Below are positions 410 to 44,883 of a stretch of DNA of 64,000 nucleotides, in pieces. Numbering within the stretch: the stretch's first letter is position 1; the number at the start of each line of letters is the position of its first letter. Origin of the DNA: Mesotaenium endlicherianum (taxonomy: Eukaryota). The position numbers and the translations under genes are program-made. The notes beneath the pieces are model-generated. The model was given only the letters and a program-made list of their open reading frames with translations. It did no database searches and was not told where the DNA came from. Location of the stretch: positions 655,602 to 719,601 of the forward strand of contig WELA01003606.1 of the NCBI GenBank assembly GCA_009602735.1, written 5' to 3'.

Positions 410-1479
410 ACGGTATTCTACCTCACACTATTGCCAGCTTACAACGAAGTTGAGAGAAGGAACTGGGAGTACATGGCCAGGGAAGCAGGACAGCAGATGT
501 TCTCTCCCCACTGGTTCCCATGTGAATTGAGAAAAGCTGAGCACGGACCCCAGTACTACCAGCTGCCAACAGATTGGAGGTGGATGACCGCCACAAACAA
601 AAAGCAGGAGTGTGACCGAGCCCAACCGGACGATTTCCACTATGGCCTAGACGGCTACCTCATCCTGCCACCTCACATTGCCCCTTGGGACCCGAGGCTG
701 AATGGCTGCCTGAGCAACATGAATGCAGAGACCAAAGAGCACAGGAGGAGGGGAAGAGACTACTTCTTTAAGGGAAAGCATGCCTTTGTCAAATGGGCGA
801 AGAATGCAGGCCGGGTAGATATCAGCAGGCTGAAGGCCAAGCAACCTTCAGCGCCCCCTAAGAAAGGGAGATCAGTAGACTACTCCAGTCTACCAGGGAG
901 CAGGACGACTTAGTTGACGAGACTCCTACTCTCTCAGAGGAGGAGGATGAGGGGGATGAGGAAGAAGAACAAGGCAGAGGAGAAGCATCAGGAGCTGGTA
1001 CTCAGGAGATCCAGGGGCAGGCAGGGGCACTTCCTAAGGAACCAAGATCAGGTATATGGAACGTGATCCCGGTCATGGAGGCAAGTGGACTCCGCACTCG
1101 CTCCCCAAGCCCACCTGCCCAAGCAGGGGAAGAAGCTGATCTGACGGTACTTGGCAGCAGACACAGGCAGAAATCCCCGGAGGACAGGGGTTTCGAAAGA
1201 GGGCCACGCGGGGTGGCCAGAGGTATGCCGGCCTACCCCTCCGCTCAGGGACATGTACCTCTTGCCAATGTATTTCAACATCCTACGGGAATGCCTGTCT
1301 ATGTGGGAATTAATACCCAAGTGGGTGAAGAGCAGGCTACCATCTTTCGTTCTCCTCGAGGTCCAACTTTAGAACAAACGGGGTTCTTTAGAAGGCCAGC
1401 TGACAGACCTAGAGGGCTCTCCAGATCTAGGTCCAGATCTCAGTCTCCTGATCCTGAAGCCCCAGGAACAACCCCCTAA
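410..1479 (+). pseudogene. Family A additional 3' ORF of unknown function (copy 1, 5'-interrupted, frameshifted)
   Basis: Shares YNEVERR.WE..ARE, LPPHIA.WD.RL.G, KGKHA..KWA, PKKGRSV.YS, an acidic tract and GHVPLA.V.QHP.GM..YV with copy 2. Confidence 0.8.
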
Positions 1480-1592
1480 GTGACAGGCTAAAAGGGGCAG
1501 TCAGTGGGGAAGGCTGGTCACATCCAGTCCCCTTATTTAAGACTTCTGCAGTTTAATGTTGTCGAGGCGACAACAACTTAAGTTGGAGGAAT

Positions 1593-2313: not shown

Positions 2314-3600
2314 GGTCTCCATTCTTCATCAGCCAAAGTAACGGCAAGTGATCTGTGATTAACGTGAAAGGTCTTCCCCATAAATACTCTCTGAAATGTG
2401 TGACAGTCCAAACCACTGCCAACAGCTCTCATTCGTAGGACAAGTAGTTGCTCTCGGCTGGGTTGTTAGAACGCGAGGCATAGGCAATGACGTACTCCTC
2501 TCTAGGTCTTGCGGCCTGAGTGAGTTCTGCGCCGATTCCCACATGACTCCAATCAGTGTGTAGATTGAACAGCTTGGAGTAGTCAGGCGTACGCAAGACT
2601 CGGGTCGTTACCAACCGCTCCTTGAGCTCGTTCATGGCCTTCTCCAGGGCTTCCGTCTACACAAAAGGTACATCCTTTTTTAGGAGTTCTGTCAAGGGTA
2701 TAGCAATTTTGCTATAATCCTTAACAAATTCACGATAGTATCCGCTTAGCCCTAACAGAAGTTTCAGCTTAGACACATACGCCGGTGCAATTATCTTGTA
2801 AATGGCTTCAGTCTTTACTGCCTGAGGGAACATAGCATTGTTCCCAATCTTATGTCCTAAGTAAGGCACATGTGCCTCAAAGAATCCGCACTTTCCAGGG
2901 TGCAGTGTCATCTGGAATTTCTCCAGGCGCTGGAACACTTGTTCCAAGTGCTCGAGATGCTCCTCTATGGACTTGCTGAACGCCACTACGTCATCAATGT
3001 ATGGTTTTGCAAAATCCAGCCCCTCCAGCACTTTATCCATGTCCTCTGAAATATGGCTGGGGCATTTTTCAGCCCAAACGGCATTACCGTCCATTGCCAA
3101 AGTTCCCTTTGAGCCCAGAAAGCGGAATTACCTCGATTTTTTGTTTTCACAGGGATTTGGTTGAAGCCTTGGCGTAGATCAATGATGCTGAGCACTTTCC
3201 CGGTGGTAGCAATCGCAGAGATCCGCTCTGGTGTAGGCATCACATAGTTGTCTGGCTCCGTGTGAAGATTCAGTCAATTGTAGTCTCCATACATACGAGT
3301 GGTTGTATAATGGCCAACCTCGTCCTTCTTGGCAACTACTACTATGGGAGCTCGATGTACTGAGGTTGATTTCTCAATCATGCCAAGCTTGTGCAACTCC
3401 TGGCAAGTTTTCTCTACACAGTCCCATTCGGTGTGACTGAGCTTATGCGGCCGAAGTCTGACTGGGTTATCAGTAGTAAGTGTGATCTCACACACACTGG
3501 CAGTGGTTCTACCAATCTCCTCCTTGGTAAAAAGAAACACCTTGCGGTGCTTTTCAGCAGCCTTTCTACTTGTGCTCTCTGTTGGGCTGAGACCATTTTC
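2314..3600 (-). pseudogene. Element D reverse transcriptase and RNase H
   Basis: APIVVVAKKD, IIDLRQGFNQI, MPFGLKNAPAIFQR, YIDDVV, YLGH; RNase H LHTDWS...IAYASR...ESNYLSYE; frameshifted. Confidence 0.92.
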
Positions 3601-5036
3601 CCAACGGTGAAAACCTCAATTTCCGGCTGCTTTTCCCCAACACAGGCCTCCAGTAGTTGCTACTCTTTGGGTCCAGATGGGGGCTACGTGTTCTCATCCT
3701 GACCTTCAGGCTTTTTTGCCTGATTGTTAGACGGTGGAGTGGCAGGCTTTGCAACTTGCTCCTCCGTTGTCTTAGGCACGGTGGCTTTGCTTCTTAGGCC
3801 TTTTACCTTTTCCGATAGATTGTCGCCTCTCCTGTTGCGTGGAGTATGTCAGACGCCTCCGAATGGGCTGCCTCAAGAACCTTTCTTCATCGGCTGCAGT
3901 CCAGTTGGTCCCTGTTCCTCCCTCTTCTCGTGGTGGGGGTGGGTTCGGCAAAGGCCACCCTGCTAGATCTGCTCTGGGGTCGATTGTTCAACCCCACTCG
4001 CGTTCAATGGTAGTAATGTGCGCAACGGTTGTGCCAAACTTCTCCCTGGCTAGTGGCGTAACCGTCCATGCTTGTGTCACAATCTGCGATTCTGAGTCAC
4101 GGATAGTTGTGCGTTTACAGCATTCACTACTGTCAAGCGGCTTATGGTACTTTTCAGCTCCACCAGTTCCCTTTCAAAAACTGCAGATGTCCTAGAAGCT
4201 GAACTGTTCTTCTCCCACGTTCCAGTGGATGAAGGGCGCACCATGGGGATGTGAATTCCCAATGCCATAGCTTTGCAAATCAAGCCATTCTCTCCCTCTC
4301 TCTGCAAAATCTCCAGGACAGGTTGTGGAGGAGGAGCCATGGTTCCTTTCGGAACCCCTTCTCTCTGAGCTGTTCCCCTGTACTTGAGATATCGCATCAA
4401 CATCCTTCTGAAAGGTGCATTCCCTTCCCGGGCCACCTTTCTTGGTCTGCTTGCGCGACCGTGAGGATTTCCTTGTGTTGGTTCCACCTTAGCGGTGCAG
4501 GCAGCAACTTCCTGCGGCTGTTGTAGCTGATGTGGGGTAGCTAATGATACTAGAAAACTGGCAATTGGAGTGCTGGATGTAGGCAACCTCAGGTCGTTGT
4601 AAAGATCAGCCGGGCTGGGCCCTTCCATTATCAAGTGGTCGTCCACCCAATCATCCGTCCTGAGCTCTTGTAGCTCCAACAAGTCCAGCTCTGGGGTAGG
4701 AAAACGTGGAATTTCTTCCCGAATTACCTCTTCATTAGTGACTGACGGCAGGTCAAGCTCTGGAAAGTCTAGCATCTCTGCCTCATCTTCAACTAAGTTC
4801 TCCACTCCAGGTGGTGGTGGCTCTACTTCATTATCTGTGATGAGCTTTGCTAGATTGACGATGGCTGATTGCAAAGCGCTTGCCGCCTTAGCCACTTCCC
4901 TTTCCTTGTGTTGTCGAGCGTCTGCGTCCAGCAGCTGCTCCATGATTTGCCTTGCGATGGAATCGGCTGTCTGACTGGCTAAACCCTGCTGTTGCCCCTT
5001 AGCCTGCGGCTCTGAGCTCATCAAAGAGGGTGTTAT

Positions 5037-5755
5037 TGTAAGGTCATAGGTTTATAAAGTGCATTTTTGAGTTTTATGAAAGTATGTTTTGATTATATAG
5101 AAGTATAGAGTGCATTGTTGTGGTCATTTTGATATAAAGTTCATCGAATTTGGTCAAGTATTGAGAGAGTTACGGATTCCCGAAGTTTAATTAGTTTTGA
5201 GGTCGGTTGACGACTATCCTTAATTTGCGGTGAGCGCGACCGTCGGATTGACCGACAGCGTCGAGCGATCTGGCCCGTTGGAATTAACTCGAACTTCACG
5301 TAAGTTCGGCTGACGCGGAGTGCCGACTAGGTCGATTTACCTAGAAGTTTCGGTTTAGCCTAGCGCGTCTAAGATAGAATATTCTAGTAATGTCGATGCA
5401 TGTATGTGGACGTCAATTCGGCCCGACACGTCAGATTAGACTGATCTGGCTTACTCACAAATATTCTGGAAGGGACGATTTGACGAACACTTATAAAAAT
5501 CCGTAGCTTCCTCCTAGAGAGGAGCATTTAGGCAAAAAAATTCTTATCAGTTTTCACTTCTGTAAATTTCTACGAGTTTGTAATGACAAGGCCTTTTATC
5601 CTACATCATTTGTGAGCAGTTTTTTGCAACTCAAAATGTCAAGTGATTTTCCTAAGCTTTCTTAGCAATATGCCGCTGCACTCTTGAGTATGATTGCAAG
5701 TAGCTTTGTTCCTCGTGAGTCACTACGCTTCCACTAGGGCACTCTGCCCCTTTCA
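5037..5755 (+). repeat. B1 5' LTR
   Basis: TGTAAGGTCA...CCCTTTCA followed by Met PBS; near-identical to 8500-9004 and to the reverse complement of 25726-26469. Confidence 0.92.
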
Positions 5756-5792
5756 TCTGGTATCAGAGCAGGGCTGGTTTGCACATTACATT

Positions 5793-6640
5793 ATGGAGTC
5801 GCAGCCGGCAGCTGGAGGAGGCGAACATGTCGAGCATGTTGAGCGCGCGGGGCAGCAGGCAGCACCAACGATGACCAGAGAGCAACAAGAAATGCAGGCG
5901 ATGCTAAGGCAAATGGCGAATGCAATTGGAGGAGAAGTCTATGCCCAGTTTCAACAAAATATGCGCGCGGAGGTGGAGAGAATGGTGCGAGTTGTTGTTG
6001 GAAACGCCGCTTCGACGAGTTCGGCACCTGCACCCGTTGTACCACCAATTCACGTTAACCCAGTGGTGCAACCAGTTATTCCACTCGCATCGGGAGTGCG
6101 TGTGCCTAAGCCTAAAGTTTATACTGGAGAGCGTGGATCGCCGCCTGTTCATCAATGGATTTTTGGAGTGAAGAAATTTATGGAGTACTCTGCGCTCCCA
6201 CCCGACAGGCACGTCGCCTTTGTCATAACTTTGCTGCATAAGAGTGCTGGAGCTTGGTATGAACGAGAAGAGCAACTGTCTGGAGTTCCTGATACTGTTG
6301 ACCAGCTATTTGAAGGCTTGAAGAGGCAATTTTAACCTATTGCACCCGACGCTACCGCTCGAGATCTAATGGTGCGCCTTCGTCAACGAGGAAGCGTTCA
6401 AGAATATGTATCGCGCTTCAACGAGCTGGTGCTTCAATGTCCATCCATGCACGAATTGGAGATGATGGACAAGTTGAAGAGGGGACTCAAGCCAACTGTG
6501 GCCAAGGAAGTGGCGCTCAAGGACCCTACCAGTCTTGGAGAAATGATGGCATTGGCAACAAGGGTCGACGCTGTGGAGTATAGTCAGAGACAGTGGGACA
6601 GCCACAACTTTGGAGGATATCGAGACTTTGGATCTCAAAG
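5793..6640 (+). pseudogene. B1 gag (in-frame stop at 6333-6335; zinc knuckle and protease deleted)
   Basis: Retrotrans_gag-like LRQRGSVQEYVSRFNEL; collinear with B2 gag. Confidence 0.88.
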
Positions 6641-8512
6641 TGCACTGGAGCACAGGACAAGTGAAATTCCAAGGGCGTGATGGTCGAATGGAGAAAGCAA
6701 AACAGGTGGAGGTAGATACGACCACAAGTAACTGTCTTCTGTCGAGCCTGCAAGTTAAGAAGCTATGCAGGGCGAATCAGGTGAAGGAGATGTACCTTGT
6801 TTTGGTGGCCCTGGCCAGGTCATCAGATGGAGCAAGCGTGAGTCCTAACAGCCTGGGCGAATGTACATCGCCGGAGGAGCAAGTAGTGGTGTCTGATCCC
6901 CTTGCTCAGAAGGAGCAGAGCCCAACTCCTCAAGCAAAGAAGCCTGCTGAGATGCCTGCCCAAATTAAGGCGCTGTTGGAGGAGTTCAAGCGCGTATTTC
7001 CTGAGGAGCTACCTGCAGGATTACCTCCACAGAGAGCTATAGAGCACAAGATGGAGTTGGAACCAGGGAGCAAGCCACCAGTGAGACCCGCCTATCGTCA
7101 ATCGTTTGCGGAGTTGGATGAGTTGAAGAAGCAGCTGACAGAGTTGTTGGAGAAGGGATTCATTCGACCCAGCGAGTCTCCATTTGCAGCGCCAGTCTTA
7201 TTTGTGAAGAAGAAGGATGGCACTATGAGGATGTGTATCAACTACCGGGCACCCAACAAGGTCACTATCAAGAACGGGTACCCACTTCCACGAGTGGACG
7301 AGTTGATTGACAGGCTTGTTGGGGCGAAGTTTTTCTCGAAGATCGATTTGAGGAGTGGCTATCACCAGGTACGGATTGCGGAAGGAGACGTTCAGAAGAC
7401 TGCTTTCAGAACTCGCTATGGTTTGTTCGAGTTCACAGTCATGCCTTTTGGATTGACTAATGCACTTGCTACATTTATGGGACTCGTGAATAGTATCTTC
7501 AGACCCTACTTGGACCAGTTTGTGGTGGTATTTTTGGATGACATCCTGATCTATTCGACGACCTTGGAAGAGCATGTGGAGCATCTGAGGAAGGTTTTGG
7601 AGGTCTTGAGAGATCAGAAGTTATATGGGAAGATGAGCAAGTGCGACTTCTGTCTAAGTTGAGTATGAGCACTTCCTATCACCCTCAGACAGACGGGCAG
7701 AGTGAGAATCTCAACAGAACTCTATGCAAGAGGTGCTCAGGAGTTTCACTATGGAGGACCCTTCAGAGTGGGACAAGAAGCTGCCAGGGTTGGAGTTTGC
7801 CTACAACAACAGCATGCAGGGATCGACCAAGCAGTCACCATTCGCTATGGTTTATGGGAGAGAAGTATATCATCCAGGTAACATCTTGTTGGAGAAGGCC
7901 AAGGAGACTCAGGTTCCTACTACACAAGCTTTTGTGGAGCAGATGGCCAACACTTGGGATATGGCGAAGACGTGTATTCGGAAGGCACAGGAGGAACAGG
8001 GCAAGCATGCTAACAAGCACAGATGGGAAGTGACATTCCATGTGAGCGACAAAGTACTCTTGTCCACAGAGAACCTACCTTTCACAGGCAAGAGGAAACT
8101 GCGGCCACGGTTAATAGGTCCCTTTGTAGTGCTCAAGCAGGTTAATCCAGTGGCCTACAAGTTGGAACTTCCTTCAGGCTGGCGTATCCATGACGTGTTC
8201 CATGTCAGTTGTTTGCGGCCATATGTTGACCCGAAGGAAGGACATCCAGGACGACTACCTACACCGCCACCACCGGTCGAGATCGATGATGTATTGGAGT
8301 ATGATGTGGAGGCAATTGTCGGCGATCGACGAGTCAAGCGAGGTCAACGACTTGTTCAAGAGTATCTGGTCAAGTGGAAGGGCTACCATGCGGACGACAA
8401 CACTTGGGAGCCAGAGGCCAACTTGACTCATTGTAAGAGTAAGTTGAGACGTTATTTGCAGAATGCGTCGAGGACATCGCATCTTGAGGAGGGGGATGAT
8501 GTAAGGTCATAG
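6641..8512 (+). pseudogene. B1 pol remnant: RT, then integrase C-term and chromodomain (RNase H and most integrase deleted)
   Basis: [40 protein letters not shown] motif, YDVEAIV...YLVKWKGY...NTWEP. Confidence 0.92.
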
Positions 8513-9004
8513 GTTTATAAAGTGCATTTTTAAGTTTCATGATAGTATGTTTTGATTGCATAGAAGTCTAGAGTGCACTTTTGTGGTTGTTTTGATACGA
8601 AGTTCATCAAATTTGGTCAAGTATTGAGAGAGTTACGGATTTCTGAAGTTTAATCAATTTTAAGGTCGGTTGACGACTGTCCTTAATTCGCGGTGAGCGC
8701 GACCGTCGGATTGACCGACAGCGTCGAGCGATCTGGCCCGTTGGAATAAACTCGAACTTCACGTAAGTTCGGCTGACGCGGAGTGCCGACTAGGTCGATT
8801 TACCTAGAAGTTTCGGTTTAGCCTAGCGCGTCTAAGATAGAATATTCTAGTAATGTCGATGCATGTATGTGGACGTCAATTCGGCCCGACACGTCAGATT
8901 AGACTGATCTGGCTTACTCACGAATATTCTGGAAGGGACGATTTGACGAACACTTAGGAAAATTCGTAGCTTCCTCCTAGAGAGGAGCATTTTGGAAGAA
9001 AATT
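8500..9004 (+). repeat. B1 3' LTR, 3'-truncated
   Basis: Matches the 5' LTR up to ...GGAGCATTT, then switches to element D sequence. Confidence 0.85.
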
Positions 9005-9691
9005 GCTTGCCCGACTCCTCCTTGCGTTCTCCTAATGTCATTTCAAGACATATGGTCCTTGCAAACCCTCCAGAAACTCCCGAATTCTGGCTGCCCTCTT
9101 CAGCCCATTCACCAATATTGCACTGGCGTTCTTGCATTGTGAAGACGATAGATACTTTTGGCTAGCTTCCCAGCTACTTGAGCTTTCCTGCCAACAATCT
9201 CCGCGCCCAGTTGGTCTTGGGCTGAGGTGGGTTTCATACCCTGAATTGGCATCTTCTGGAGTCTCCTCACGCCTTGATGTCATGGCTCCGGAAGGTAGTC
9301 TTCCAAATATCTGATTGTGAGTGGCATTTCTCACAGACGACGGGGTGTCCTGCGTACTGTCTTCTGCGCTTGGCAACGGCGTTGCCTGCTCAAACGTCTG
9401 GTCCCCCATGGATGTATCTTCTCTTTCCAGAGGTGCTTGTATTTCAGCAATCCGATTATCGATCCGGTCCAACAGATCCTGGTATCTCATCAGTTCAATT
9501 GCTCCAGCTTGCCTGTATGCTCTGTTTCTGGCAGCTTCAGCTGCGTCTCTTTGCACACCGTATTCTTCTTGTTGCTGATATGCCGTCTTGATAGCCCTCT
9601 GATCAAATGTGGGGACCACATGGGCTCCAATTGTCACTGGTCTTGGCCTTGGCATAGGCTTGTCAGTGAAGGTCAACTGCTGCCACGTCAT

Positions 9692-10660
9692 GATTGTTTC
9701 CACCAGCCAAGTCATAGAGTGCTGTCCAATCATGTTGCCGAAGATCTTCGCAGCCTCGTCTGACCCTACAGCACCGGCTATCTGCCGAACTATAGTGTCG
9801 GGTATTCCAAGGCATTTGCCCTTCTCCACCGCAGTAGGCTCTCTCCAAACGTCATCTCTTTCATGCATGTCTTTGACCATTCTTGGTCCATCTTCTATGA
9901 AGGCTCAAGATCCTGGATATGCTGTGAAGGTAGGCAGTACCACCCTTGGCAATCCTGATTCGTTAATGACGCACTGGGGATAGATATCCCTCTTGGTACC
10001 TGGCCTGGTACATACTGCCAGCACCTTTTCTATTGTCAATGCTGTCGGTGATTGCCGTATAATGTCCTCCATCTCTCTCAGGACCTCAATAGATATGCCG
10101 TTGGCCCAAAATATTCTGGCCCTATGGGATGATCCTCCGTGCTTGGCGTCGTTGATTAGCACATGATGACCCAAGGTGGAGTCAAAAATCAGCCATGGTT
10201 CTCCCGGCTTCATCTGCTTGTAATCCATTCTTGGATGCACATTCTCAATCACAAACACTGGTGGGTAGTAGTGCTGTCGTTCCCGCAGCATGCTGATGAT
10301 TTTCACCATCCATCCCAAGTGTTGTGCTCGTGGATCACTGAATCCCCTCCTTTTTCCAGGTTGAGAAAACGGTTAACAAGGAAATCCAGCAAACATCCAG
10401 TCAATCCTGTAGCCATACAAGCCTTCAGGCTTCACATCAATAATGTTGCCTCCGGCGATGCGCTCGACATTGATATATGCGGGCACCAACCCTTTAAAAT
10501 GTTGCATTAGCCGCATCTAAGTCATGACTTTTCTGAATGCTAGGAAATCGTGGTCATCATTGTCCACATACAGAACTTTGGCCACCTGTATTCCTCGCTG
10601 GATCAATGCTATGGTCCCATACCCAAGTCCGGCAAATAATTCAACACCACTACTCCTCTT
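9692..10660 (-). pseudogene. C5 cytosine-specific DNA methyltransferase domain in the element D polyprotein (~320 aa, 3 premature stops)
   Basis: One frame: VELFAGLGYG (I, from 10645), YVDND (II), GNIIDV (III), DWMFAGFPC*PFSQPGKRRGFSDPR (IV), VFVIENV (VI, 10246-10238), SSHRARIFWAN (VIII), REPTAVEKGKCLGIPD (IX), KIFGNMIG (X). Confidence 0.93.
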
Positions 10661-13434
10661 TTACGAAAAAAAACTTCCATCCTGACAATGCCTTGCGGCA
10701 GCGGCTCAACTTGAGGCATCAGATTTGCAGTAGAGGTAACTGGGTAGGGAATTGGCACTAGCCCTTGCGAGCCACGGTCCCTGCTACTCACAGTTTCCAA
10801 TTGCTCCATAATCCGAGGTTGCCATACCAACGGTGTTGGCATGTTGATGCTCGTATAGCTTTCCTTTTTGCGCTTCATGATGTCGTCGCGAGATTCTGGG
10901 TACCTGTCGTTAACGCAGCAGTCTAGTCGCCCGTAGTTTGCTTCTCCTGTGTAAACCATCTTCTCAGGAATTTCTCCTGCCGGCTGCTGATTTGTTGACT
11001 GGTAAGTCACCCTCTGCTTCCGCAGATCAATGACCATACCCAAGGGAATCAGTGCTTCTGTTCCCAAGAGAACATCATAGTTCTCTGCCTCCGTCACTGT
11101 GCACTCCATGAGTAGTGACGCCTCTTCAGGTTTCCCTAGATTTACAGTGATTATCACAGGCTTGCGGGTAATCCCACAAGACTTTGAGACTTGCCCTGAG
11201 GTAGTTCTCAACTGGAAAGGAACTTCTTTTAGGTCCCTTGCCGTCAATCCTAGAGCTTTCACAGATCACTTTTCCAAGATGACTGGCTGTGCACCCGTAT
11301 CCAACAAAATGTTCAACAGAATGTTAGGGACTGCCAAGTTATTGAACATTAGTCCACCATCCCTAATCTGCACTCTTACGGTGCTAAAATTGGTAGGCAA
11401 TGAGGCGCTGTTTGCACCCTCCTCAGCTGTATCCGGCTGATGTCCGGCTTCTTCAACCGTGAATGGGTAAGTGATATGCAAATCAGCGAGAGAAAGCAAA
11501 GGAGCATGCTGGATCCGGTGATCCACCAGGGCCTTCAGCTTCTCCAGCAAAAAACTAAATGTCTTACGCGTCCTAGGCCTGGCTTGTCGTAGCTGCCAAA
11601 TCTCATTTTCATCCAGAGTGATCCGAAAAGTCTGAGGAAGCTTCCTAGCATTCCTTTGTACCAGACGGTTGTGATCTGCTTGCTCGGCAGCCGTTGCGTC
11701 CACAGCCTTTTCAGGCATCAGCTTCTCGCCTTTGCAAACGGTCCTTTCTGCGAAATGTGCATCATAATAGACATTGGGCGTATTTAGTTTCGCAAACTGA
11801 GCTTTCAACTCAGCGATTTCTGCACTCATAGCTTCATACTTCTGGTTACCCTTGCGGTTACCAGAGCCACCCTTTTCTTTCTTCGTTCCCTTGTCTGCCT
11901 CTTTCATGGCAACATTTGCCCATGGCGGCTTTAAATTTAGATTCTTAGACCAGCACTCATCTTTTGAGTGTCCCTTCTTGCTGCAATGTGCACATATCTG
12001 TGCATCCGGGTACGGACAATCTCTCTTCAGATGTCTTGATTTCCCGCAATTCCAACAACTCTCTGCTCTTTCAGCAGTGTTGGCATGCTTAGCAAACTTA
12101 TTGAAAGACTCGCTCTTTTTCTTAAACTGAAAATTAGAGCCGTTGGCCTTAGGCGAAGAGAATTCCTCCCTCCTCTCAGGGGCCATAAGCGTCCTCAAAG
12201 CCTCTTTATACCACACTTTACCTTCTTCGACATTGCGTGCTATTTCAACCGCCTCGTTGATGTCCCAGTCAATCCCGTGCTTCGCAGACAGGTGTGGCCT
12301 GACTTCACAATCGGTTTCCTTGCCCAAGCACAACAGAAACTTGTCAGCCACAATTCTGGGTTCGTGTATTTTTGCCTTTTTGGCGAGGTCTACCAATCTG
12401 GATTTGACCTCCATGACTGTCTTGTTCTTTCGACGGACAAAATGCACATAACGGTGCATCTTAAGACTGCGATCCTCTTGGAATCGTGCTTCAAGCAACT
12501 TTAAGAAACGGCGCAGGCAATGCTCGGAGTCTAGAAAGTCATCCCTAGCCTCCATATCCTTACGACAGTTAGCCAAGGCTTGCGCATGGCTTGCCTCTGT
12601 CGTGGCACTATTGCTTTGCTGACTATTAAAAGGTACAGCTCTGCGCCTTACTCATTCCTGAGCATTAGCAATCTTTTCAGACGATTCTGCACACACCTTT
12701 CGCAACTCTGCGACAGAGCCGGCATCACCATTCTGAGTAGCAGCCCTTTGCTGGCCCTCAGCGAGTTGCCTCATGGCCTCTGTTAATTCTTGTGTTAATG
12801 CAGCTAAGACTATGCTCTCAACAAGTGCAGTTGGCACTGCTCTTCCTAAAGATAAAGCAGACATTCGGGCTTTCGCAGCCTCTTTCTGGATTTTCAAATC
12901 CCTAGCCCTTTTTTGCTCTCCAAATGCCCATTCCTGGGTGAGATCCTCATCCTTCCGGAATTGGTGATATAGCAGCAGGGCATCCTTGTCCAAGTACTGA
13001 ACCAAGCCTATAAATGCAACAATTTGCGTATAAGAGGAATCTTTTCGAATCTTCTCAAAAAATTCTGCCTAATAGATCTCATCAAACTCTTTGAAAGTGA
13101 GACCGTTTTCGCTGGTTTGTCCGCTAAAACACTTTGCAGACAGCTTAAACTTAGGATACTCATCCCGATCATCACCGGCCATTTCAAACGGTGACCAGGA
13201 CTCACTGACTCTGCCCCACACGTCTTGCTCTCTGCCCAAATCAGGTGCAAAGGCTCGCGTGTTATCCGGGTTCTCCCCGCTTGCGGAGATATGGCAAGAC
13301 TTGTCTCTCGATGGTTGCTCACTCCACCGGTTGTCAATATGCTCACACGTCTCACTTCCTCGTGGACTCTGGCTAGAATCAGACACTTTTGCAGGCTCCA
13401 CAGAGTGGTAGAGTCTTCCACTTCTCAACCGCAT
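10661..13434 (-). pseudogene. Element D gag (two CCHC knuckles) and aspartic protease
   Basis: MRLRSGR start; CWNCGKSRHLKRDC and CAHCSKKGHSKDEC; ILLDTGAQPV ... YDVLLG. Confidence 0.9.
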
Positions 13435-14787
13435 ATACAGTTGAATTTCTCCGGGTCGCCTTCCAGGTTAAACACCGGCAGCCTTCACAGGCCTCAATCT
13501 CCAATTGACTTGGGAATTCTTGTTCACGTGAACCAGTCAGACCTCAAGTTTTTAGAAGTAGGACAGAAGCGTCTTACTTCCACACAGGCTTTTGCCCAAG
13601 TTGAGGGTTTACAGAACGAACAACTTTGTAGTTTGCAAAAATCACGTCTAAGCAGCTTAACAAGCAATGCCAGATTCAGAGAAAATTGCCCTTCAAGGCT
13701 TTCGCTTAACTTTCACAAGTTATAGCTTACAAAACTCTGAAACTGCACATCTATGCTGGCCTGGTCTGAGCTCTTCGCTCAACATCGCGCCTTAACAGCT
13801 CTTCACTGCTTGGCTGGGCTCACTCAGTTATTCACTGAGAGCTTTACTTGTTAATACTACTCTTGCTATCAGCAATTCGACAATTGAGACTTCTGAGAGC
13901 TTGGAAACTAACACAGCACTCACCATTTTAAGTGACTCTCGCCCGCTTGTGGCGTTTGACCCGAATCTGTGCTAATCTCCTAACAGATTCTATTCTGCAG
14001 CTCTCTAGTTTCTACCAGTGAGATCCTCTCCTGGGAACTCCTGAGGTCTAACCTTTCTATGATACACTTAGGAAGAAATCTTCCAGCGTCGGCAGAAGCG
14101 TGGCGTCTCGGCTCTTCTATGGCCTTGGGAACTCCTTCTTCTTTGCCCTCCTTCTGCTCTTTCAACTTCCTTGACAACGATGCTAGCAAGAATGAGGCAG
14201 CTTCAGGCAAGACTCGTGCCTTTCACAGGCACCGCACATTATCCTCTCTCGAGAATGCCAGTGCTTGGTCATAGCGCTTAGCTTGCATGCCGTCCTTACC
14301 TAGCAGCTCTCACATTGCTTAGAAATTGTCATTTAGCATGCATGCATGCCTTGGGATTGTCGCGCGTGACCGCTTAGCCTTTCAGCTGACAATCACGTCT
14401 ATGTGGCTGGCTGGCAGCGTTTAAGATGAACACTTAAGCCGTGACTAGTCGCCTGAGAGTCTTGGCCGAGGTGGCACACAATACCTCTGCAACATCCCTG
14501 CTGTACTTGGCTTAGATAGCCAATTGATCAATACCTTTCTTGGCACTTGCTGGGTCGGCTCATTGCTGGTTCCATCCCCCTAGCCTTCCGGCTGACTACT
14601 CCGTCCAAATCCCCATCCATCCCTGGGTGTGGGTTTGACGTGTCGTGACCACTTTGACAATAATAATGATAATGACTTTGACATGACCGCTGACTGAGAT
14701 AACTCGGTCCTTTGGTTGGTGAGTCAACGCTGACTTCCCGTACTTGGGCGGCCGTGACTTGCGCTGTGCGTGCGGCACTGTCAAGTG

Positions 14788-15286
14788 TGTAGTGATTTGA
14801 GTTATTATATATTAGTTTGCATATATTTTAATGTTTTCAAATATATGTGGAGTAGTATTGTGTAGAGTCAAGTGTGAATAGGTACTTTAGTAACTTGGTT
14901 CATGTCCTTTGAACCTTCCAAGGCATTTTTGAAGTTAGAGGGAAGACCTAGAAGAACTCCATGTGGCAAAAGTCAAATGTGCCATTTTTAGGTCAAAAGG
15001 ACATGTGTACATTATTCTAGAAAGAGGTGGCAAGTTTTGGGATGTGTTGGGTGCCAACACATCAACATACACTTTCCTAGAAATTACTTATGTAGCAAGT
15101 ATATAAACAAGAGCTAGAACATAGAAAGACATTCCAGAATCACTCTTGTACTTGCCAAAATCCAGAAATATATTAACTTTCAAGAAGCCATCTCTCTTTC
15201 AAGAAGCTACCACTTGTGTTCAAAGATCCTTGTCTTGAATAAAGTATTCTATTTCACAAAGTACTTTATCTATCTGTTTCACTACA
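14788..15286 (+). mobile_element. Family C solo LTR with 5-bp TSD AAGTG
   Basis: TGTAGTGA...TCACTACA; AAGTG at 14783-14787 and 15287-15291; matches the LTRs of 44959-51652. Confidence 0.95.
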
Positions 15287-16196
15287 AAGTGGATAGCGGT
15301 CGCGACATTGTGTATAAATATTGTTTGTACGTATGTATATGCATAGACATGTGTATATATGTCATAGCTATGTGCATTACATTATTAAACATAACACTTC
15401 AATAGATAGCGCGATAAATGATATACACTAACGTACATGCTATGGCACGATGACACTTTGTGCTGTCATCTCGTTGACACCTACGTGATGTCATGAGACT
15501 GTTTGTTTACACTTAGGGTCATACATTTAACACCTATGAAAAGGTTTGTCTCCTCTAACTCGTCAAGTTTAGAGATTGATTTGTTGTTTGTCACAAACAA
15601 TTGAAACAATTGTCCTGTTATAACAACCTAAAAATAGGTGTTGGAGGAGTGTCAAGTGCACCCAGTGACTTGCGTTGGCAAGTAAATATATTTGCATATT
15701 CATTCTAATGCAAATCCCAGAGCATCTCGTCATTATTTTTGGTAAATTATTGCACAAGTCTTTATTAAAAAATGTGGTAAAGATTCTCTTGAAAGGTCCA
15801 TTGTTACATTGGTGTTAAAGTAAATCATTATTCCACTCAAATAACCTGTGAATGATTGTTCAATATTACTTTGGTTCGTTAAGATTTGAAAAGCAAGCTT
15901 GTGTTTTTTGCTTTTTGCAAAAAAAAAACGTTGACTTTCAAAGGTTTATGTCTAAGAAGTTAACAAGAAGGAAAGGGGCTTGCTAGGACCGAAATCTTGT
16001 CAAATTCTTGGCAATCAACCACGTCAAACCGGTCAAACCGAGACAACCTCTCGGCAAGCGGGGAGTAGCTTTGCCTCATTTTCGTCAATCAAGCCAAGGA
16101 ATTTATTGGCCCAGGACGGTGGCGAGGGTGACCTCGACAAGCTCTAGGTCTCATTGCCCTGCCATATCAGTTAACGAGGGGGGGCGGGGGAGAGGG

Positions 16197-16596
16197 NNNN
16201 NNNNNNNNNNNNNNNNNNNNNNNNNNNNNNNNNNNNNNNNNNNNNNNNNNNNNNNNNNNNNNNNNNNNNNNNNNNNNNNNNNNNNNNNNNNNNNNNNNNN
16301 NNNNNNNNNNNNNNNNNNNNNNNNNNNNNNNNNNNNNNNNNNNNNNNNNNNNNNNNNNNNNNNNNNNNNNNNNNNNNNNNNNNNNNNNNNNNNNNNNNNN
16401 NNNNNNNNNNNNNNNNNNNNNNNNNNNNNNNNNNNNNNNNNNNNNNNNNNNNNNNNNNNNNNNNNNNNNNNNNNNNNNNNNNNNNNNNNNNNNNNNNNNN
16501 NNNNNNNNNNNNNNNNNNNNNNNNNNNNNNNNNNNNNNNNNNNNNNNNNNNNNNNNNNNNNNNNNNNNNNNNNNNNNNNNNNNNNNNNNNNNNNNN
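16197..16596. other. Assembly gap (N run)
   Basis: About 400 N. Confidence 0.99.
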
Positions 16597-17259
16597 GGGG
16601 GGGTCCTAGCTTGCCCTTGGCTCCTTCTTTATTTAGGGGGAATTTTTGACCTCCTAATTGTCATCCGGGAAAAGAAGTACCTTGGCCCAAATCATCAGGT
16701 GATGGGGGTGGCCATGACAAGCCCGTCCCTTGTAGCCCTGTCCTTTTTGTCCTTGTCCCCTAGCTTGTCTGTTGTTGGCCGAGAGAGTTATGTGTGGTGC
16801 TGTGTGGTCCGTTCAGCTTTGCATTTAGTAACACACGGCCAGAATGTACCCGCGGTCAACTCGTGATTAATTTTGAGCTCCTTTTTCTGTCCTTTCTCCT
16901 TGTATTTCAGCTGCTACTTGTGTTGAGTATGCAAAGTTCCATATTAGTAACGAGTTTTAAAGATGTTGAAAGTGCAAGTAAAAGTACTCAATAGTAATTT
17001 CTCAAAGTTAAAATGAATGTTCCAACTTCTAATCAACCACTAATAATTTTGTCTCAACAGATCATTTTGTATTGAGAATGCGTAGTCCAAGAGATTTTTA
17101 GATGATTTTTGTTATTATTGTTTAATTCAAAAATATTAATTGTAGGCATTGACTCTATTATGAGATATTTATCTAAGCAAATGAACAACATTTATAACCA
17201 AAACAATATTCTTATCTAACTATGTGTATCTAACACTATCCTTTTCCAAAAAAGGTAGA

Positions 17260-22769: not shown

Positions 22770-25725
22770 TGTTGTGACTGAGACTTTTGGAGGACACTAG
22801 GCATTGGCAGGGCAAGGAAGGACGGGACTTACAGGGGAAATACCCTTGGAATAGGCAAGGACTGACTTATCTAAGTGCTGGTGGGTAAAAATCTCCCCTA
22901 GCAGGAGAAAAGTCCACAGCTTATGAGCTGTAAATATGAAAAATGATACCAAAGGTTTGGGCACAAATGGACATTACTAGGGCAACTAAATTCGCAAAGA
23001 ATCAAGTGAAAAGTGACCTATGAAACACCCTCCCCCGGCTGAGGGCGAGGGGGCAAGAGCGCAACTGAATGTGGAGGCTCCAAAATGCAATCGTCGGGGA
23101 CGATGAACAAGAGGACGGCCTCGAGCAAGCCAGGGAAATAAAACCCTGGAGGAACATACTCCAAGTGGTACACATGGCATTTGGAAACGGGATAGGAATC
23201 TATGACGGTGCGGAGGTGGGGCAAAACGGCCGACTGACGACCTATAGCGGCGGGCCACTTGGTGGGAATACGCGCGTCCACCAGGAAACTCCCGCAGAGT
23301 GCATCAGCGATGGAAGCCGTGAGCGTCGGGGGCGGGAGACTCCGCGAATCTGCGAGCAGAAATTGTTCCCACCACGGAAGGGTAGGGGGATCAGCAACGG
23401 CGAGGGAGCTAGCATAAAAAAATAACGCGGAGTGTACGAGAAGGGAAGGACGTAGTGAGAGGGTCCTACGCAGCAGGAAGAGTAAAACCAGTCTCTTCCA
23501 GGAAAGCGACTTAGAGGAGTGAGACATGCAAGGTGCCACCTAGAATCGCAAGCGTTTCACAATAGCATAGATACGACGGCGGGAAGATCCACTTAGTGTG
23601 GTGCACTCTGACACTGGTTTGGGCCCGAACGCCCAAAAACGCCCCAGAACTGGATCTCCACTCATCTCTGCCCAAGGCGTAGACGGATATTTTCTCCACT
23701 AACTTAGGCAAAGGCGGAGAAAATGACATCCCTGCCACATGCGGAGATGGTATTTCTACGCTCAATGGCGAATATTGTGTCTCTGAACAGATTTTCTCCT
23801 TTGCCAAAACTGTCGAAAAATGGCTAAGTATGGAAAGCCAATTTGAAAATGGTCACTCTCCGAAAATGGTCATGGAAATTGACCACTTTGTTGTGATTGG
23901 TTAGTGCAATTGGCCAAGTGTGCCAATAACGTTATTGTGCACTAATAAGTTAAGAAAAATGAAGAGGTTGACTCTTCATTTTAGTTTGTTTGAGTTTCAG
24001 TCGTGTGGTGGCGGGAGTGACCCTTATGTGCCCGGCCCCTGTTGCTTGGTTGTTTTTGTTTGGGGAGTGGGCGAGAGTGTGCCAGAATGTGCAATTTCGC
24101 TCAAGCTCGCGTCAGATTAAAAAAGACTCTGATTGGCCCTTGCCTTTACGAGGAGCCCAAGTCGTCAAGTGGCGGGGGTTATTTTGACAAGCACGTACCT
24201 CCTTGACTTCCCCTTGCCCCCCCGCTTGTGTCTTATTGGTCAAAAAAACATATAGGGTACACCTGCGGGCGCCGAGAGCGAAACACAACGTTATTTTCAC
24301 GAAAGATCGCGTAATCCGCGTCATCCGAGATCATGTCACCCGCTAGATAACACCTCCCAAATAACACTTCCCAGGTAACTTAAGGAATTTGGGGGGCACC
24401 GCAATACTAATCTTTGTCTCTTACCCTCCATCTCGCATAGGGGGATGGCCGTCACTGGCCCGTGCCTCGTGTAATAACCAATCACATGCACGTTTTTAAC
24501 CCATACAAAAATATCCCATCCGGCCAGTCTGCCGAATATGATTCCACCCGAAATTTCAGGTTGGGTTTTTCTTCAGTCCCAAATCTCCAAAGTGACTCAG
24601 GGATCCGATGGGCTCAAAGCCAAACAGGCTAAGCCCCCGTCGAGTTCAAGCCCGTTGGAGTTAGGCCCGGACGGCCTTGACAGCCTACGGGCTGTCAGCC
24701 CTTTTGGGCTGACTGCCCACGTGGTCGTCAATCTCCTTGGTGTTGGCGGACCACAAGTAGGCGCACACGCTTTGCAGATTGGGGTTCAATTGACCACGTG
24801 GTATCCAGATTTTTTTTGTTGAGCTAGAGAATCCGATGAGACCTTTCACGTGCACCATGACTGGCGCTAGTTGACTTTTTAACAATGCAAATCGGAGATT
24901 CTGCTGGCGACACTTTCAGAAGGAGCAAAACCGGTCGGCACAGGTTGACATTTGGCGTTTTGTGCACTTAATTACTGTGATCTGATTGGCCAGTGAATAT
25001 GTAATTGCATGTAACTCCGCTTGCAAGCGGAGAATTAGACGGAGAATTTGTGTTTCTGAGCCGGAAAGTGGCGGAGTGAGGCCGAGGAATGCCTATCTCC
25101 GCCTCCAACCCTCCGCTCAAATGTGGCGGACAATTGGTCTTGTCCGCCTTGAATTGGACTTGACGAAAATGAATTTTTGTGTTAGACCCGTCTCAGAGTG
25201 TGCTCGATCATGACTAAGACGTAACGTATACTACGCTTAGGGAGGGGAAAAGGACCGGCAAGGTCAAGAGACCATTGGTAGAATAGACCGCGCAAAGGAA
25301 GGGGGTTGAGAACAGATGGAAGAGCGTTGAAGGTGTTCTTAACTCGATCACACGACTTGCATGACCGGACAAAAGCAACAACTTGTTAGATTAAATCTTC
25401 CCACAAGTACATGGTTTGTAAAAGACTGCTAGTACGCTGCTTAACACAAAAATGCCCAGATTTCTCATGAACCTTGCGGATCAAGGGAACAAGCTCAACG
25501 AGAGGAGGCACAATCCTGATGTGGTAGGGAAAGATACGTAGCAGCGTACCCTTATGCCAGTGATAACGAACACACCGGTGGAGGATATGATCACGCTCAC
25601 AACGCAAGGGAGGGACAAACCTAGCACAAATACACAGATATCCAAGGTAGTGTGAATTAGACCAGATATCAGACGTAACGCGAGACCCATTTGATGCAGA
25701 CCCGACAGCATACACAGAGGGGAGG
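22770..25725 (-). mobile_element. Element E relic: integrase Zn-finger/core start, PHD finger, C-terminal region, PPT, 258-bp 3' LTR; split by a DNA transposon
   Basis: 25201-25725: HEKSGHF...CKSCDR...DLAGPF...RYVLVMIEH; resumes at 23603 as HTKWI; PHD ~23470-23570; PPT 23028-23036; LTR 22770-23027. Confidence 0.8.
23604..25200. mobile_element. Non-autonomous CACTA/CMC-like DNA transposon (1597 bp)
   Basis: TIRs CACTCTGACACTGGTTT / CACTCTGAGACGGGTCT, 2-bp TSD TG, subterminal (G)GCGGAG repeats; removal restores the host integrase frame. Confidence 0.82.
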
Positions 25726-43300: not shown

Positions 43301-44883
43301 CTTGTCTTGTGCCATCTGCTTCAATCTCTGCTCACTCACATGTCCCAGCCTCTGGTGCCACAGGTTGATGTCACTCTCCAGCTTGGCACCTCCCTTTGCA
43401 CCAAGTGCAAACTCAACCTAAAGAACCTGGTCTATTATAGATAGAGCAATCTCAGTTTGGCACTGGATTTTGAACAAGCTGCCTTGAACACTTGACTTCA
43501 CAGCCTTCGTTACCACATCACCGTCGGAGTCCATGACTCGACACTCACTTCCTTCAAACACCACTGTGTTTCCAAGGGCTGTGGTCTTTGGCACTGATCC
43601 AGATTCTTCACTAGTCCCGGACAGTGAAGCACATCCTGCATCGTAATCTTGTGCCTCATCTTGCCTAGCTGTGTCATGACTACCACCTTTCCAGTTCCAA
43701 TCTCTTGCAGCAGCATGCCATCACCAACTCTGACTGGCACTGGACTGCAGGACTTGTAGTCGAGCATGATCTCTCTCCTCGAAGTGGCATGTCTTGAAGC
43801 TCCTGAGTCAACAAACCAGGCATCCTCATCCTGCTCGCTGCACACCAGTGACTCTTCTATAGTAACAGCATTGGCATTTTCTTCAGCATCGTGAAGGGAA
43901 GTACCTTCTCTCTTCTGGCTGCAATCCTTGGCCAGATGTCCCTTCTTGTTGCACGTGAAGCACACTGCATCCTCGCAGCTTGGTGCAGAATGTCCTGTCT
44001 TTCCACAAATGAAGCATCTCCCTTTCTTGCTTCCACCTCCTCTGCCTTGATAGCCTCCTCTATGAGATCCTGACCTCCTTTCTCCCCATCCTTCTCCTTA
44101 CCGACTGGAACTGGCCACGCTAAGCTCTTCCATCTGCTCCACTAGCTGATTGCCCACCAGAAGAAACTTCCTGTCTCCAAACATGAGTAGAGCCTGTTCA
44201 GTGGATGAGCTTGCCTTTTCTTTGGTCTCCAACTGAACCTCCTTAATGAGCAACTTGGATTCAATGTTCTCCATGGTGAGTTCAGCAGTAGTCAGCACTG
44301 ACAGGGAGTCTCTAAAGGTCTCAAACTTTGAATCCAATCTATTCAGAGCTTGAATCACCTGATCTTCTTGATTCACCTCGGCATCCAAGGCTTTTAATTC
44401 CTCACACACTTCTCTAATGCGGGAGAAGTAAGACTGCACGCTCTCTCCCTTTTTCTGCTTCAACAGAGCAACCTTCTTCTTAAAGGTGCCTTTGTTAGCA
44501 ACACTATACTGCTGGTGCAGGTTCTTCAACGACTCCTACATCGCTGTGCTGGTCTCTAAATTCAGCACTCTCATGTAGGTCTCCTGACCCAAGCTCTTTG
44601 TAAGCAGATCAAATGCAAGTGCCTCCCTCTTTCGCCATGCAACTCTAGCTGCTCCATTCGTAACATACGCTTCTCTGGTTGCTGCATCAGCATTTGCAGC
44701 GGGCACTTGGAGTGGATCTGGGATCTTTTCATTTCCAAGCACTATCTCCTTGAGATCATGTCTGGCTAACTGTGCACACACTCTTCGCGACCACACAAGA
44801 TACTCAGTACCCTTCCCATCGAAGTGCGGGAGCCGAGAGTTAGAACCTCCTCCGATACCATGTTGAACATCTTCATCTGTCAT
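40363..44883 (-). pseudogene. Copia gag-PR-INT-RT-RNase H polyprotein (few stops/frameshifts)
   Basis: Two CCHC knuckles, WFVDSGAS, LVHSDVWGP, PQQNGVAERKNR, YKARFVAKGY, LYVDD, SDADW, KHIDIQHH. Confidence 0.95.

What the first reader, a model, noticed from the sequence alone, without database searches (positions are those of the whole stretch)
9692..10660. Gypsy retrotransposon encoding its own C5 DNA methyltransferase between protease and RT
Seen: reading the minus strand through stops at 10517-10519, 10373-10375 and 9905-9907 gives the C5-MTase motifs in canonical order in one frame: ELFAGLG, YVDND, GNIIDV, AGFPC*PFS (catalytic PC; the stop is plausibly CAA>TAA), VIENV, HRARIFWAN, REPT..E...LGIPD and FGN. 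They lie one frameshift downstream of gag-protease and upstream of RT/RNase H of the same element. The ORF track splits the domain so that it is not obvious. Known: DNMT-carrying retrotransposons have been reported in dinoflagellates and charophyte algae (de Mendoza et al. 2018, cited from memory), so the concept exists but is rare. Motif VIII resembles DNMT3 (AHRARYFWGN), while motif IV resembles bacterial HhaI-type enzymes (AGFPCQ.FS). Inference: the enzyme would be packaged in the particle and could methylate the element's own cDNA or its target site; this family or host may be undescribed.
Basis: partly seen in the sequence, partly recalled or inferred. Interest (0 to 1): 0.93.

Follow-up and report, generated by a model that had tools for sequence, protein, structure and literature searches.

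The report
Methyltransferase retrotransposon with leaky stop
This is a broken copy of a repeated jumping gene that carries its own DNMT3-type DNA-methylating domain, a kind already described in a green alga; here the domain sits in the coat-protein reading frame ahead of a likely leaky stop codon, so it would be made in bulk and would likely methylate the element's new DNA copies.

Summary
Window 10660-9692 (minus), read with X at three stops, hits PF00145 (E 6.7e-14), folds confidently (pLDDT 88) and matches DNMT3A/B best by profile and structure. It belongs to the green-lineage Gypsy-DNMT3 clade, which includes Klebsormidium, Closterium, Mesostigma and Scenedesmus proteins. This kind is in print (PMC5890265). 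The domain is a family feature, not a later insertion. This copy is dead, cut by three nested insertions, and the DNMT region had no reads in three RNA runs.

Corrections: the protease-DNMT frameshift is most likely a lesion; the enzyme is DNMT3-type, not HhaI-type; RT lies 6 kb away across a chromovirus.

New here: TAG-CAA-CTA (3662-3654), a plant-virus-type readthrough context, precedes the RT leader; stop+CAR sits at the same place in 10 of 14 distinct related loci. The DNMT is thus likely made at Gag level. A tail of about 680 codons or more separates DNMT from RT. The scan noted the leaky stop before in other genomes. Verdict: new variant of a known kind.

The parts
15287..15307 (-). Probable 5' terminus of the element (begins TGTCG), cut off from the rest by a solo LTR; AT-rich DNA lies beyond
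   Evidence: terminus inferred from the TG start and the change in composition
14788..15286 (.). Solo LTR of another family inserted into the element's 5' end, with a 5-bp target duplication (14783-14787 and 15287-15291); not part of the element
   Evidence: four more copies of this LTR in the window
13183..14787 (-). 5' non-coding region of the element; more repeated than the gag region in organism A; no primer-binding site recognised by eye
   Evidence: depth tables
11800..13182 (-). gag with CCHC zinc knuckles; two in-frame stops
   Evidence: PF00098 E 0.0024, below cut-off; 20-27% to P0002, P0015, P0039, P0152
11000..11334 (-). Retropepsin-like protease (LLDTGA) in the gag frame; one stop
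   Evidence: 38.8% to L001, 40.8% to P0006; no Pfam hit on the pieces split by the stop
9692..10645 (-). DNMT3-type C5 cytosine methyltransferase domain; three stops; one frameshift from the protease frame near 10641; catalytic Cys, ENV and RxR residues kept
9005..9691 (-). Tail 1: 217 open codons continuing the DNMT frame, then two stops 30 bases before the insertion border; no known domain
5037..9004 (+). Inserted chromovirus (LTR 5037-5757, internally deleted gag-pol, chromodomain, second LTR cut short at 9004, no target duplication); not part of the element
3663..5036 (-). Tail 2: 324 open codons (to 4077), then a decayed stretch; acidic and proline-rich; no known domain; repeated in organism A at the same depth as the DNMT
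3654..3662 (-). TAG-CAA-CTA: type I (UAG-CAR-YYA) readthrough context, in frame with the RT leader; the only such 9-mer in the window
2314..3653 (-). RT leader, reverse transcriptase and RNase H; two frameshifts and three stops; cut by an insertion before the integrase
   Evidence: 52-54% to L001
411..2313 (+). Another element inserted into the RNase H end (LTR 1593-2313), itself cut by an inverted copy of the same LTR at 1-410; not part of the element

Best explanation
The window holds a dead copy of a repeated Ty3/Gypsy retrotransposon whose first reading frame likely ran gag-protease-DNMT3-long tail up to a likely leaky UAG stop, with RT and RNase H behind that stop, so the methyltransferase would be made and packaged at coat-protein level and would likely methylate the new DNA copy. 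Shown: the DNMT3-type domain, its place after the protease, its presence in many other copies, the stop and its context, and the clade of both DNMT and RT. Inferred: that the two halves on either side of the chromovirus are one element (about 0.8); that the stop is read through at a low rate, as UAG-CAR-YYA is in plants (about 0.7); that the protease frees the DNMT inside the particle and that it methylates CG in the cDNA before or at integration (about 0.5).
For: Domain: PF00145 E 6.7e-14; model pLDDT 88.1, pTM 0.87; the top 8 Foldseek rows are DNMT3A/B; the family profile ranks DNMT3A 1e-25, DRM 1e-14, HhaI 1e-11. Clade: 418 proteins at E<=0.001; named ones come from Closterium, Klebsormidium nitens (GAQ93235.1), Mesostigma and Scenedesmus. 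The window DNMT lies on the protease-DNMT-RT side of the tree; the RT-DNMT-integrase group is split off at SH-aLRT 97. The window RT/RNase H groups with L001 and seven more DNMT-before-RT rows (support 88), nearest L001 at 54%. Family feature: summed contig depth over the DNMT is 3,700-14,700 in X1 and 6,300-13,900 in X2, against 56-118 for single listed contigs; tail 2 has 9,600-11,900. Two of the three stops are not shared by the contigs that cover them. Leaky stop: intact L001 is a 1369-codon gag-PR-DNMT frame, one TAG-CAG-TTA, then a 1047-codon RT-RH-integrase frame in the same register, ending in a PHD-like Cys/His pattern read by eye. Stop+CAR stands at the matching place in 14 of 19 loci examined, 10 of 14 distinct; two more have a codon one base from TAG before CAA. 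The window has TAG-CAA-CTA 20 codons before the leader glycine, against 29 in L001 and 23 in L008 (counted by eye). Chance of the 9-mer in frame within 20 codons is about 7e-4. CAR-YYA after UAG gave 32% and 11% readthrough in planta for two viruses (PMC2754532, passages). Two Symbiodinium retrotransposon DNMT3 domains methylate CG de novo in yeast (PMC5890265).
Against: No contig bridging the chromovirus was shown (15 of 125 joints listed), and the insertion has lost its right end and target duplication, so an unknown stretch is missing. The DNMT frame ends in two stops at 9040 and 9034; whether other copies share them is not known. Tail 2 has 6 stops in its last 140 codons in the frame of the leaky stop; by eye it needs two frame changes to stay mostly open. 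One frameshift separates the RT leader from the RT core, so the motif's frame is tied to the leader, which I matched by eye. The 9-mer itself is not rare: 5 expected by chance in 64 kb, 1 seen; only its position is telling. Whether other copies share this stop was not shown (40 of 653 rows listed). P0015, P0160 and several Closterium proteins run from DNMT into RT without a stop. The window DNMT is a long branch (2.25) and keeps only 34 of 56 columns that are at least 80% conserved. The tree had no cellular DNMT3 or bacterial outgroup. The element shows no extra CpG loss: observed/expected 0.59 against 0.51 for the other LTR elements of the window. The Klebsormidium domain gave no methylation in yeast, a result its authors call inconclusive. 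Three RNA runs (3,650 million bases read) gave zero depth over 9389-11890 and 3134-4801.
Confidence: 0.6

Rival explanations
1. The domain is real and ancestral but does not methylate the cDNA. It acts on host chromatin around the insertion site, or it survives as a nucleic-acid-binding or weak enzyme part of the particle.
For: 77 of 140 homologues have EC instead of PC at the catalytic motif. No extra CpG depletion. The K. nitens domain was inactive in yeast (PMC5890265). Many relatives carry a PHD chromatin reader on the integrase.
Against: The catalytic Cys column is 100% conserved, with E (100%), R (100%) and R (99%) of motifs VI and VIII, and the window keeps all four. Related Symbiodinium domains are active. 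Host methylation of all transposons would mask a CpG signal.
Confidence: 0.25
2. The gag-PR-DNMT piece and the tail 2-RT piece come from two different copies or subfamilies of the clade, brought together by the deletion at the chromovirus. The long tail would then be partly an artefact of that junction.
For: No target duplication and a truncated LTR at 9004. No bridging joint shown. Relatives have 330-480 bases between DNMT and RT against at least 2,100 here.
Against: Both pieces are on the same strand, in the right order, at the same depth and of the same clade. Tail 2 holds no second protease or DNMT. The nearest DNMT relatives also have long tails before their frames end: 485, 182 and 167 residues in P0003, P0001 and P0006.
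Confidence: 0.18
3. The TAG at 3662 is one more decay stop, and the family is a single gag-PR-DNMT-RT polyprotein, as P0015 appears to be.
For: The copy has many stops, six of them in the 140 codons before this one. P0015, P0160 and P0152 have no stop at this place.
Against: The context is a full CAR-YYA, at the position where the nearest RT relatives have stop+CAR (10 of 14 distinct loci), and the residues after it resemble L001 (QLLEA against QLEA). Chance about 7e-4.
Confidence: 0.15
4. The domain is an independent capture of a bacterial or viral HhaI/HaeIII-type methyltransferase, or a secondary insertion into an ordinary Gypsy element.
For: Single-sequence search of solved structures ranks HaeIII (1.6e-4) and HhaI first and lists no DNMT3. 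Atlas look-alikes of one fragment were mostly viral clusters. Long branch.
Against: End-to-end collinear alignment with the Gypsy-DNMT3 clade, including a 51-residue segment that alone scores 34.5 bits on the clade profile. Same position after the protease as in relatives. No boundaries of its own in the repeat analysis. DNMT3 ranks first by profile and fold.
Confidence: 0.04

Closest known systems
KnitGypsy-Dnmt3 of Klebsormidium nitens (de Mendoza et al. 2018, PMC5890265; I read parts 1-4 of 7 and a term search; Fig. 4c and the supplementary figures were not visible)
   Same: Intronless, unrearranged DNMT3-related domain inside a Gypsy polyprotein. K. nitens GAQ93235.1 (P0028), which I take to be such a copy (inference), matches the window's protease (30%) and DNMT (27%) in the same order and has the same AGFPC motif IV.
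   Different: The paper places the domain in the Pol ORF, and the parts I read name no stop between DNMT and RT. Here the domain precedes a stop in a readthrough context and a tail of about 680 codons or more; P0028 ends 7 residues after the domain. The DIRS-like repeat layout cannot be checked for this copy.
L001, an intact metagenomic relative, and the related loci L004-L023
   Same: gag-PR-DNMT, stop+CAR, RT-RH order; nearest RT (54%); protease 39%.
   Different: DNMT only 29% identical; spacer 330-480 bases instead of at least 2,100.
RT-RH-DNMT-integrase-PHD Gypsy elements of green algae (for example Scenedesmus KAF8056149.1, P0034)
   Same: Homologous DNMT; RT in the same larger clade against the chromovirus outgroup (support 100).
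   Different: DNMT lies after RNase H; they form a separate branch in both trees (97 and 98).
EpiLTRs of Euglena and Cymbomonas (bioRxiv 10.64898/2026.05.21.726589; passages)
   Same: LTR retrotransposon with a cytosine methyltransferase.
   Different: They add a Dam domain and a chromodomain, and their DNMT is sister to DNMT4; the preprint sets them apart from streptophyte Gypsy-DNMT3.
Type I stop-codon readthrough, UAG-CAR-YYA (PMC2754532 and PMC3441728; passages)
   Same: Same nine-base context.
   Different: Measured in RNA viruses of plants. In retrotransposons the leaky stop described in those passages lies between gag and pol; here it lies after protease and DNMT. Readthrough was not measured here.

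Membership tests
C5 cytosine methyltransferase (PF00145) | Pfam hit above the curated cut-off; motifs I, IV, VI, VIII, IX, X in order | tested here: met
   52.5 bits against 22; motifs; motif IX/X residues partly altered
C5 cytosine methyltransferase (PF00145) | Class I methyltransferase fold | tested here: met
   Model pLDDT 88; Foldseek E 1.8e-12, TM 0.65-0.69 to DNMT3A/B
C5 cytosine methyltransferase (PF00145) | Methyl transfer to cytosine | not testable with these tools
   This copy has three stops in the domain
DNMT3 class | Closer to DNMT3 than to DRM, DNMT2 or bacterial enzymes, with unrearranged motif order | tested here: met
   Profile ranking 1e-25 / 1e-14 / 1e-11; Foldseek ranks 1-8 are DNMT3A/B, HaeIII is rank 9 with a similar E-value but lower TM
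DNMT3 class | Nests within DNMT3 in a tree with cellular and bacterial references | not tested
   No reference sequences were available to the script machine; the tree holds retrotransposon domains only
Streptophyte Gypsy-DNMT3 (KnitGypsy-Dnmt3 kind) | Intronless DNMT3-related domain in a Gypsy coding region, homologous to the Klebsormidium one | tested here: met
Streptophyte Gypsy-DNMT3 (KnitGypsy-Dnmt3 kind) | RT of the same clade as other DNMT-bearing Gypsy elements | tested here: met
   only DNMT-bearing relatives and chromoviruses were sampled
Streptophyte Gypsy-DNMT3 (KnitGypsy-Dnmt3 kind) | DIRS-like split repeats (A-coding-B-A-B) | tested here: inconclusive
   The 3' end lies outside the window. 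A related deleted element at 54115-57400 ends in B-A-B, but its repeats do not match this element
Streptophyte Gypsy-DNMT3 (KnitGypsy-Dnmt3 kind) | Purifying selection on the DNMT across copies | not tested
   No whole genome held; other copies seen only as difference tables
Streptophyte Gypsy-DNMT3 (KnitGypsy-Dnmt3 kind) | Streptophyte host | not tested
Ty3/Gypsy LTR retrotransposon | Order protease-RT-RNase H, with integrase after RNase H | tested here: inconclusive
   PR-RT-RH order seen; integrase cut off by the insertion at 2313; present after RNase H in L001 and P0015
Ty3/Gypsy LTR retrotransposon | Paired LTRs, primer-binding site, target duplication | tested here: inconclusive
   Only a probable 5' terminus is in the window
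EpiLTR | DNMT sister to DNMT4, with Dam and chromodomain | tested here: not met
   DNMT3-type; no Dam or chromodomain hit in the element's scanned frames; the 3' part is not visible
Type I readthrough signal | UAG followed by CAR-YYA, in frame with a downstream coding region, conserved in relatives | tested here: met
   frame tied to the RT leader, which is one frameshift from the RT core in this copy
Type I readthrough signal | Measured readthrough | not testable with these tools
   needs a reporter assay or proteomics

The most novel reading that the evidence does not exclude
Across the green lineage, a Gypsy clade puts its main translational switch not between gag and protease but after a captured DNMT3, so each particle would be loaded with many methyltransferases and few polymerases and would deliver a pre-methylated cDNA. 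This subfamily is a deeply divergent branch (no domain above 31% identity among 1.84 billion representatives) with an extra 680-residue tail of unknown role on the same polyprotein.
Probability: 0.35. Interest if true: 0.7.

Novelty: new variant of a known kind. Interest (0 to 1): 0.42.

Why it matters
Retrotransposons that carry the enzyme normally used to silence them are known, but what the enzyme does is open (PMC5890265, Discussion). The position of the leaky stop makes a testable prediction: DNMT made at capsid stoichiometry, and methylated cDNA. The trees suggest that the Klebsormidium case is one member of an old and wide green-lineage clade with two domain orders, rather than a one-off capture. 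The copy itself is dead, the kind is in print, and the scan has already noted the leaky stop in other genomes, which limits the score.

Tried and rejected

Word-index protein searches with the DNMT found nothing at longer or near lengths. The third search was run on a wrong reading frame by my slip and says nothing.

Viral contig scans with the DNMT, alignment A3 and the RT/RNase H stretch found no relative. Alignment A2 had no stretch conserved enough to scan with.

Folding the single sequence gave pLDDT 35; I used the alignment-based model instead.

No RNA holder was listed by the run search; this is not evidence either way.

The Atlas gave no usable hit for tail 2; Pfam gave none for tail 1 or tail 2; none of 164 stored proteins matched either tail, nor did any of 27 loci.

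The 5' region matched none of the 27 loci and had no internal repeat.

CpG depletion as a sign of self-methylation: not seen, and not informative where the host methylates all transposons.

A programmed protease-DNMT frameshift, an HhaI-type origin and a secondary insertion were considered and rejected (see rivals).

Eight of the 27 loci were left out of the stop count: L002, L003 and L006 have the other domain order; L005, L024, L025, L026 and L027 lack the DNMT-RT junction.

Literature: six full-text searches showed no paper on a leaky stop in Gypsy-DNMT3 elements. The library lacks most subscription journals, and Supplementary Information file 1 of PMC5890265 was too large to read; it and Fig. 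4c may show the ORF layout.

Full report
1. The observation. Read with X at the stops it hits PF00145 at 52.5 bits, E 6.7e-14, cut-off 22. The other two minus frames have 20 and 15 stops over the same 318 codons. A profile of 140 homologous domains built without the window scores it 179.9 bits, the reversed sequence -2.6 and the best of 200 shuffles -0.3. It is not chance.

2. Anatomy. The window is a nest of LTR retrotransposons. The element runs on the minus strand. It probably starts with TGTCG at 15307; a solo LTR with a clean 5-bp target duplication sits at 14788-15286. Gag starts at 13182 and has zinc knuckles; a retropepsin-like segment follows in the same frame at 11334-11000. The DNMT occupies 10645-9692 in another frame. 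That frame stays open for 217 more codons (tail 1) and has two stops 30 bases before position 9005. A chromovirus is inserted at 5037-9004; its right LTR is cut short and there is no target duplication, so some DNA is lost there. Beyond it lie tail 2 (5036-3663; 324 open codons, then decayed), the 9-mer TAG-CAA-CTA (3662-3654), the RT leader, RT and RNase H to 2314, where another element is inserted. The integrase is not in the window.

3. Family feature or secondary insertion? No genome is held. Four DNA runs of one sample of organism A hold 23-27% of the sampled words. Laid on the window, their contigs give summed depth 3,700-14,700 over the DNMT in X1, against 56-68 for single listed contigs; X2 gives 6,300-13,900 over tail 1 and the DNMT and 9,600-11,900 over tail 2. 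The tool warns that this is no copy number; it does show many distinct copies with the domain. All contig depth listed at the stops 10519-10517 and 9907-9905 differs from the window; the stop at 10375-10373 was not among the rows shown (40 of 1,066 and 40 of 653). At the frameshift near 10641, contigs with 35-45% of the depth differ by one base. Differences are mostly transitions. The lesions therefore look private to this copy. In three RNA runs of the same species label (3,650 million bases read) depth was zero over 9389-11890 and 3134-4801, while the neighbouring chromovirus drew reads, most of them fitting only in part. The family looks silent in those samples; strain identity is unknown.

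4. What kind of methyltransferase? A full HMMER scan found 418 relatives at E<=0.001, best 31% identical. A profile of the window and 61 of them ranks DNMT3A at 1e-25, DNMT3B/C at 1e-23, DRM at 1e-14 and HhaI at 1e-11. With that alignment the model reaches pLDDT 88.1, and its first eight Foldseek matches are DNMT3A/B. The catalytic Cys, the ENV glutamate and both arginines of motif VIII are kept; 34 of 56 strongly conserved columns are kept in all.

5. Relatives. Of 29 hits scanned with Pfam, 21 carry RT, 19 an integrase core and 3 more a zinc knuckle or protease without RT. Named members come from Closterium, Klebsormidium nitens, Mesostigma and Scenedesmus (30 of the 150 listed hits were looked up). 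Two layouts occur among 141 domains: DNMT before RT or just after the protease (23) and DNMT after RNase H (57); 61, the window among them, were not assignable by that script. In the DNMT tree the second layout is one side of a branch (SH-aLRT 97) and the window falls on the other side, on a long branch, nearest P0001, P0006 and P0003. In the RT/RNase H tree the window groups with L001 and seven more DNMT-before-RT rows (support 88), and all DNMT-bearing rows are separated from the chromoviruses (100). Both halves of the element thus point to the same clade. Neither tree had cellular DNMT3, bacterial enzymes or DNMT-free close relatives.

6. The stop before RT. L001, an intact relative from metagenome contigs, is a 1369-codon gag-protease-DNMT frame, a single TAG-CAG-TTA, and a 1047-codon RT-RNase H-integrase frame in the same register. 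Stop+CAR stands at the matching place in 14 of 19 loci with a DNMT-RT junction, 10 of 14 after merging near-identical ones; L004 and L007 have a codon one base from TAG before CAA; L017/L018 and L023 have none. The window has TAG-CAA-CTA, followed by QLLEA (L001: QLEA) and the RT leader. It is the only such 9-mer in 64 kb, where 5 are expected by chance, so the motif counts only through its position; the chance of an in-frame match within 20 codons is about 7e-4. UAG-CAR-YYA is the type I readthrough context of tobacco mosaic virus, with 32% and 11% readthrough measured in planta for two viruses (PMC2754532, passages). Against: P0015, P0160 and some Closterium gene models have no stop there; this copy has six other stops in the preceding 140 codons and a frameshift between leader and RT core.

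7. The tail. Relatives have 330-480 bases between DNMT and RT. The window has at least 2,100 once the chromovirus is subtracted, about 680 codons before the stop. The nearest DNMT relatives also run on for 167-485 residues and then end without RT. The tail has no Pfam, Atlas or homologue match. No contig bridging the chromovirus was among the joints listed, so the true length is unknown and a two-copy junction is not excluded.

8. Mechanism. Shown: domain, class, clade, order, repetition, stop context, decay. Inferred from retroelement biology (own knowledge): the first frame makes Gag, protease and DNMT in bulk; readthrough makes a minority fusion with RT, RNase H and integrase; the protease releases the domains in the particle. 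Inferred from PMC5890265: the DNMT methylates CG in the new cDNA; two Symbiodinium domains do so in yeast, the Klebsormidium one did not, inconclusively. I found no sequence sign of self-methylation: CpG observed/expected is 0.59 in the element and 0.51 in the other LTR elements pooled.

9. What is known. PMC5890265 (parts 1-4 of 7 and a term search; figure and supplementary figures not seen) describes KnitGypsy-Dnmt3 with the DNMT in the Pol ORF and DIRS-like repeats. PMC12344493 and bioRxiv 10.64898/2026.05.21.726589 (passages) treat streptophyte retrotransposon DNMT3 as established; the EpiLTRs of the latter are a different kind. PMC6338049 (passages) states that such elements are absent from land plants such as tracheophytes; I did not determine the host, and an unchecked note calls it a plant-sister alga, in which case that statement is not challenged here. 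Six searches showed no paper on the leaky stop in these elements. The scan itself has noted DNMT-bearing Gypsy elements in this genome and the leaky stop in other genomes; these notes are leads, not support.

10. Verdict. Real feature, dead copy, member of the green-lineage Gypsy-DNMT3 clade, with a divergent enzyme, a long tail and a likely readthrough switch. New variant of a known kind; interest 0.42.

Noticed in passing
window 54115-57400 (minus): A second, internally deleted element of the same clade: a gag-like piece (by eye), the integrase C-terminus with a PHD-like end at 56012-55575 (48% to L001 ORF2), then a 194-bp direct repeat (55147-54955 and 54308-54115, 82%) giving a B-A-B right end. 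B ends in GCGACA and A begins with TGTC two bases later; the DNMT element's probable 5' end also begins TGTCG.
   Followed up: partly
window 25200-25685 (minus): Integrase core fragment 42% identical to L001 ORF2, next to a chromovirus LTR; possibly another piece of the same clade.
   Followed up: partly
stored proteins P0001-P0164, motif IV: 77 of 140 homologous domains have EC instead of the canonical PC before the catalytic cysteine; 48 have PC. Whether EC domains are active is open.
   Followed up: no
stored proteins of the RT-RH-DNMT-integrase layout (for example P0013, P0019, P0034): A second layout with the DNMT between RNase H and integrase and a PHD finger at the end, forming its own branch in both trees; P0024 also has a G-patch.
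   Followed up: partly
window 13559-13975: Contig depth peaks at 3-5 times the gag level in organism A, and a few RNA reads fall at 13559-14780; it may be a repeat shared with other subfamilies or non-autonomous copies.
   Followed up: no
window 40363-44886 (minus): A Copia element with much stronger CpG depletion (observed/expected 0.26) than its Gypsy neighbours (0.54-0.67).
   Followed up: no
window 6700-6908 and 8463-8507: RNA reads in three runs fit short pieces of the chromovirus and then run on into other sequence at fixed points, suggesting a transcribed relative or a host transcript with chromovirus fragments.
   Followed up: no
window 411-1592 (plus): Internal part of an element between two inverted copies of one LTR family; decayed open frames without a Pfam hit.
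   Followed up: partly
window 16198-16597: Assembly gap of about 400 N; the ORFs listed across it are artefacts.
   Followed up: yes
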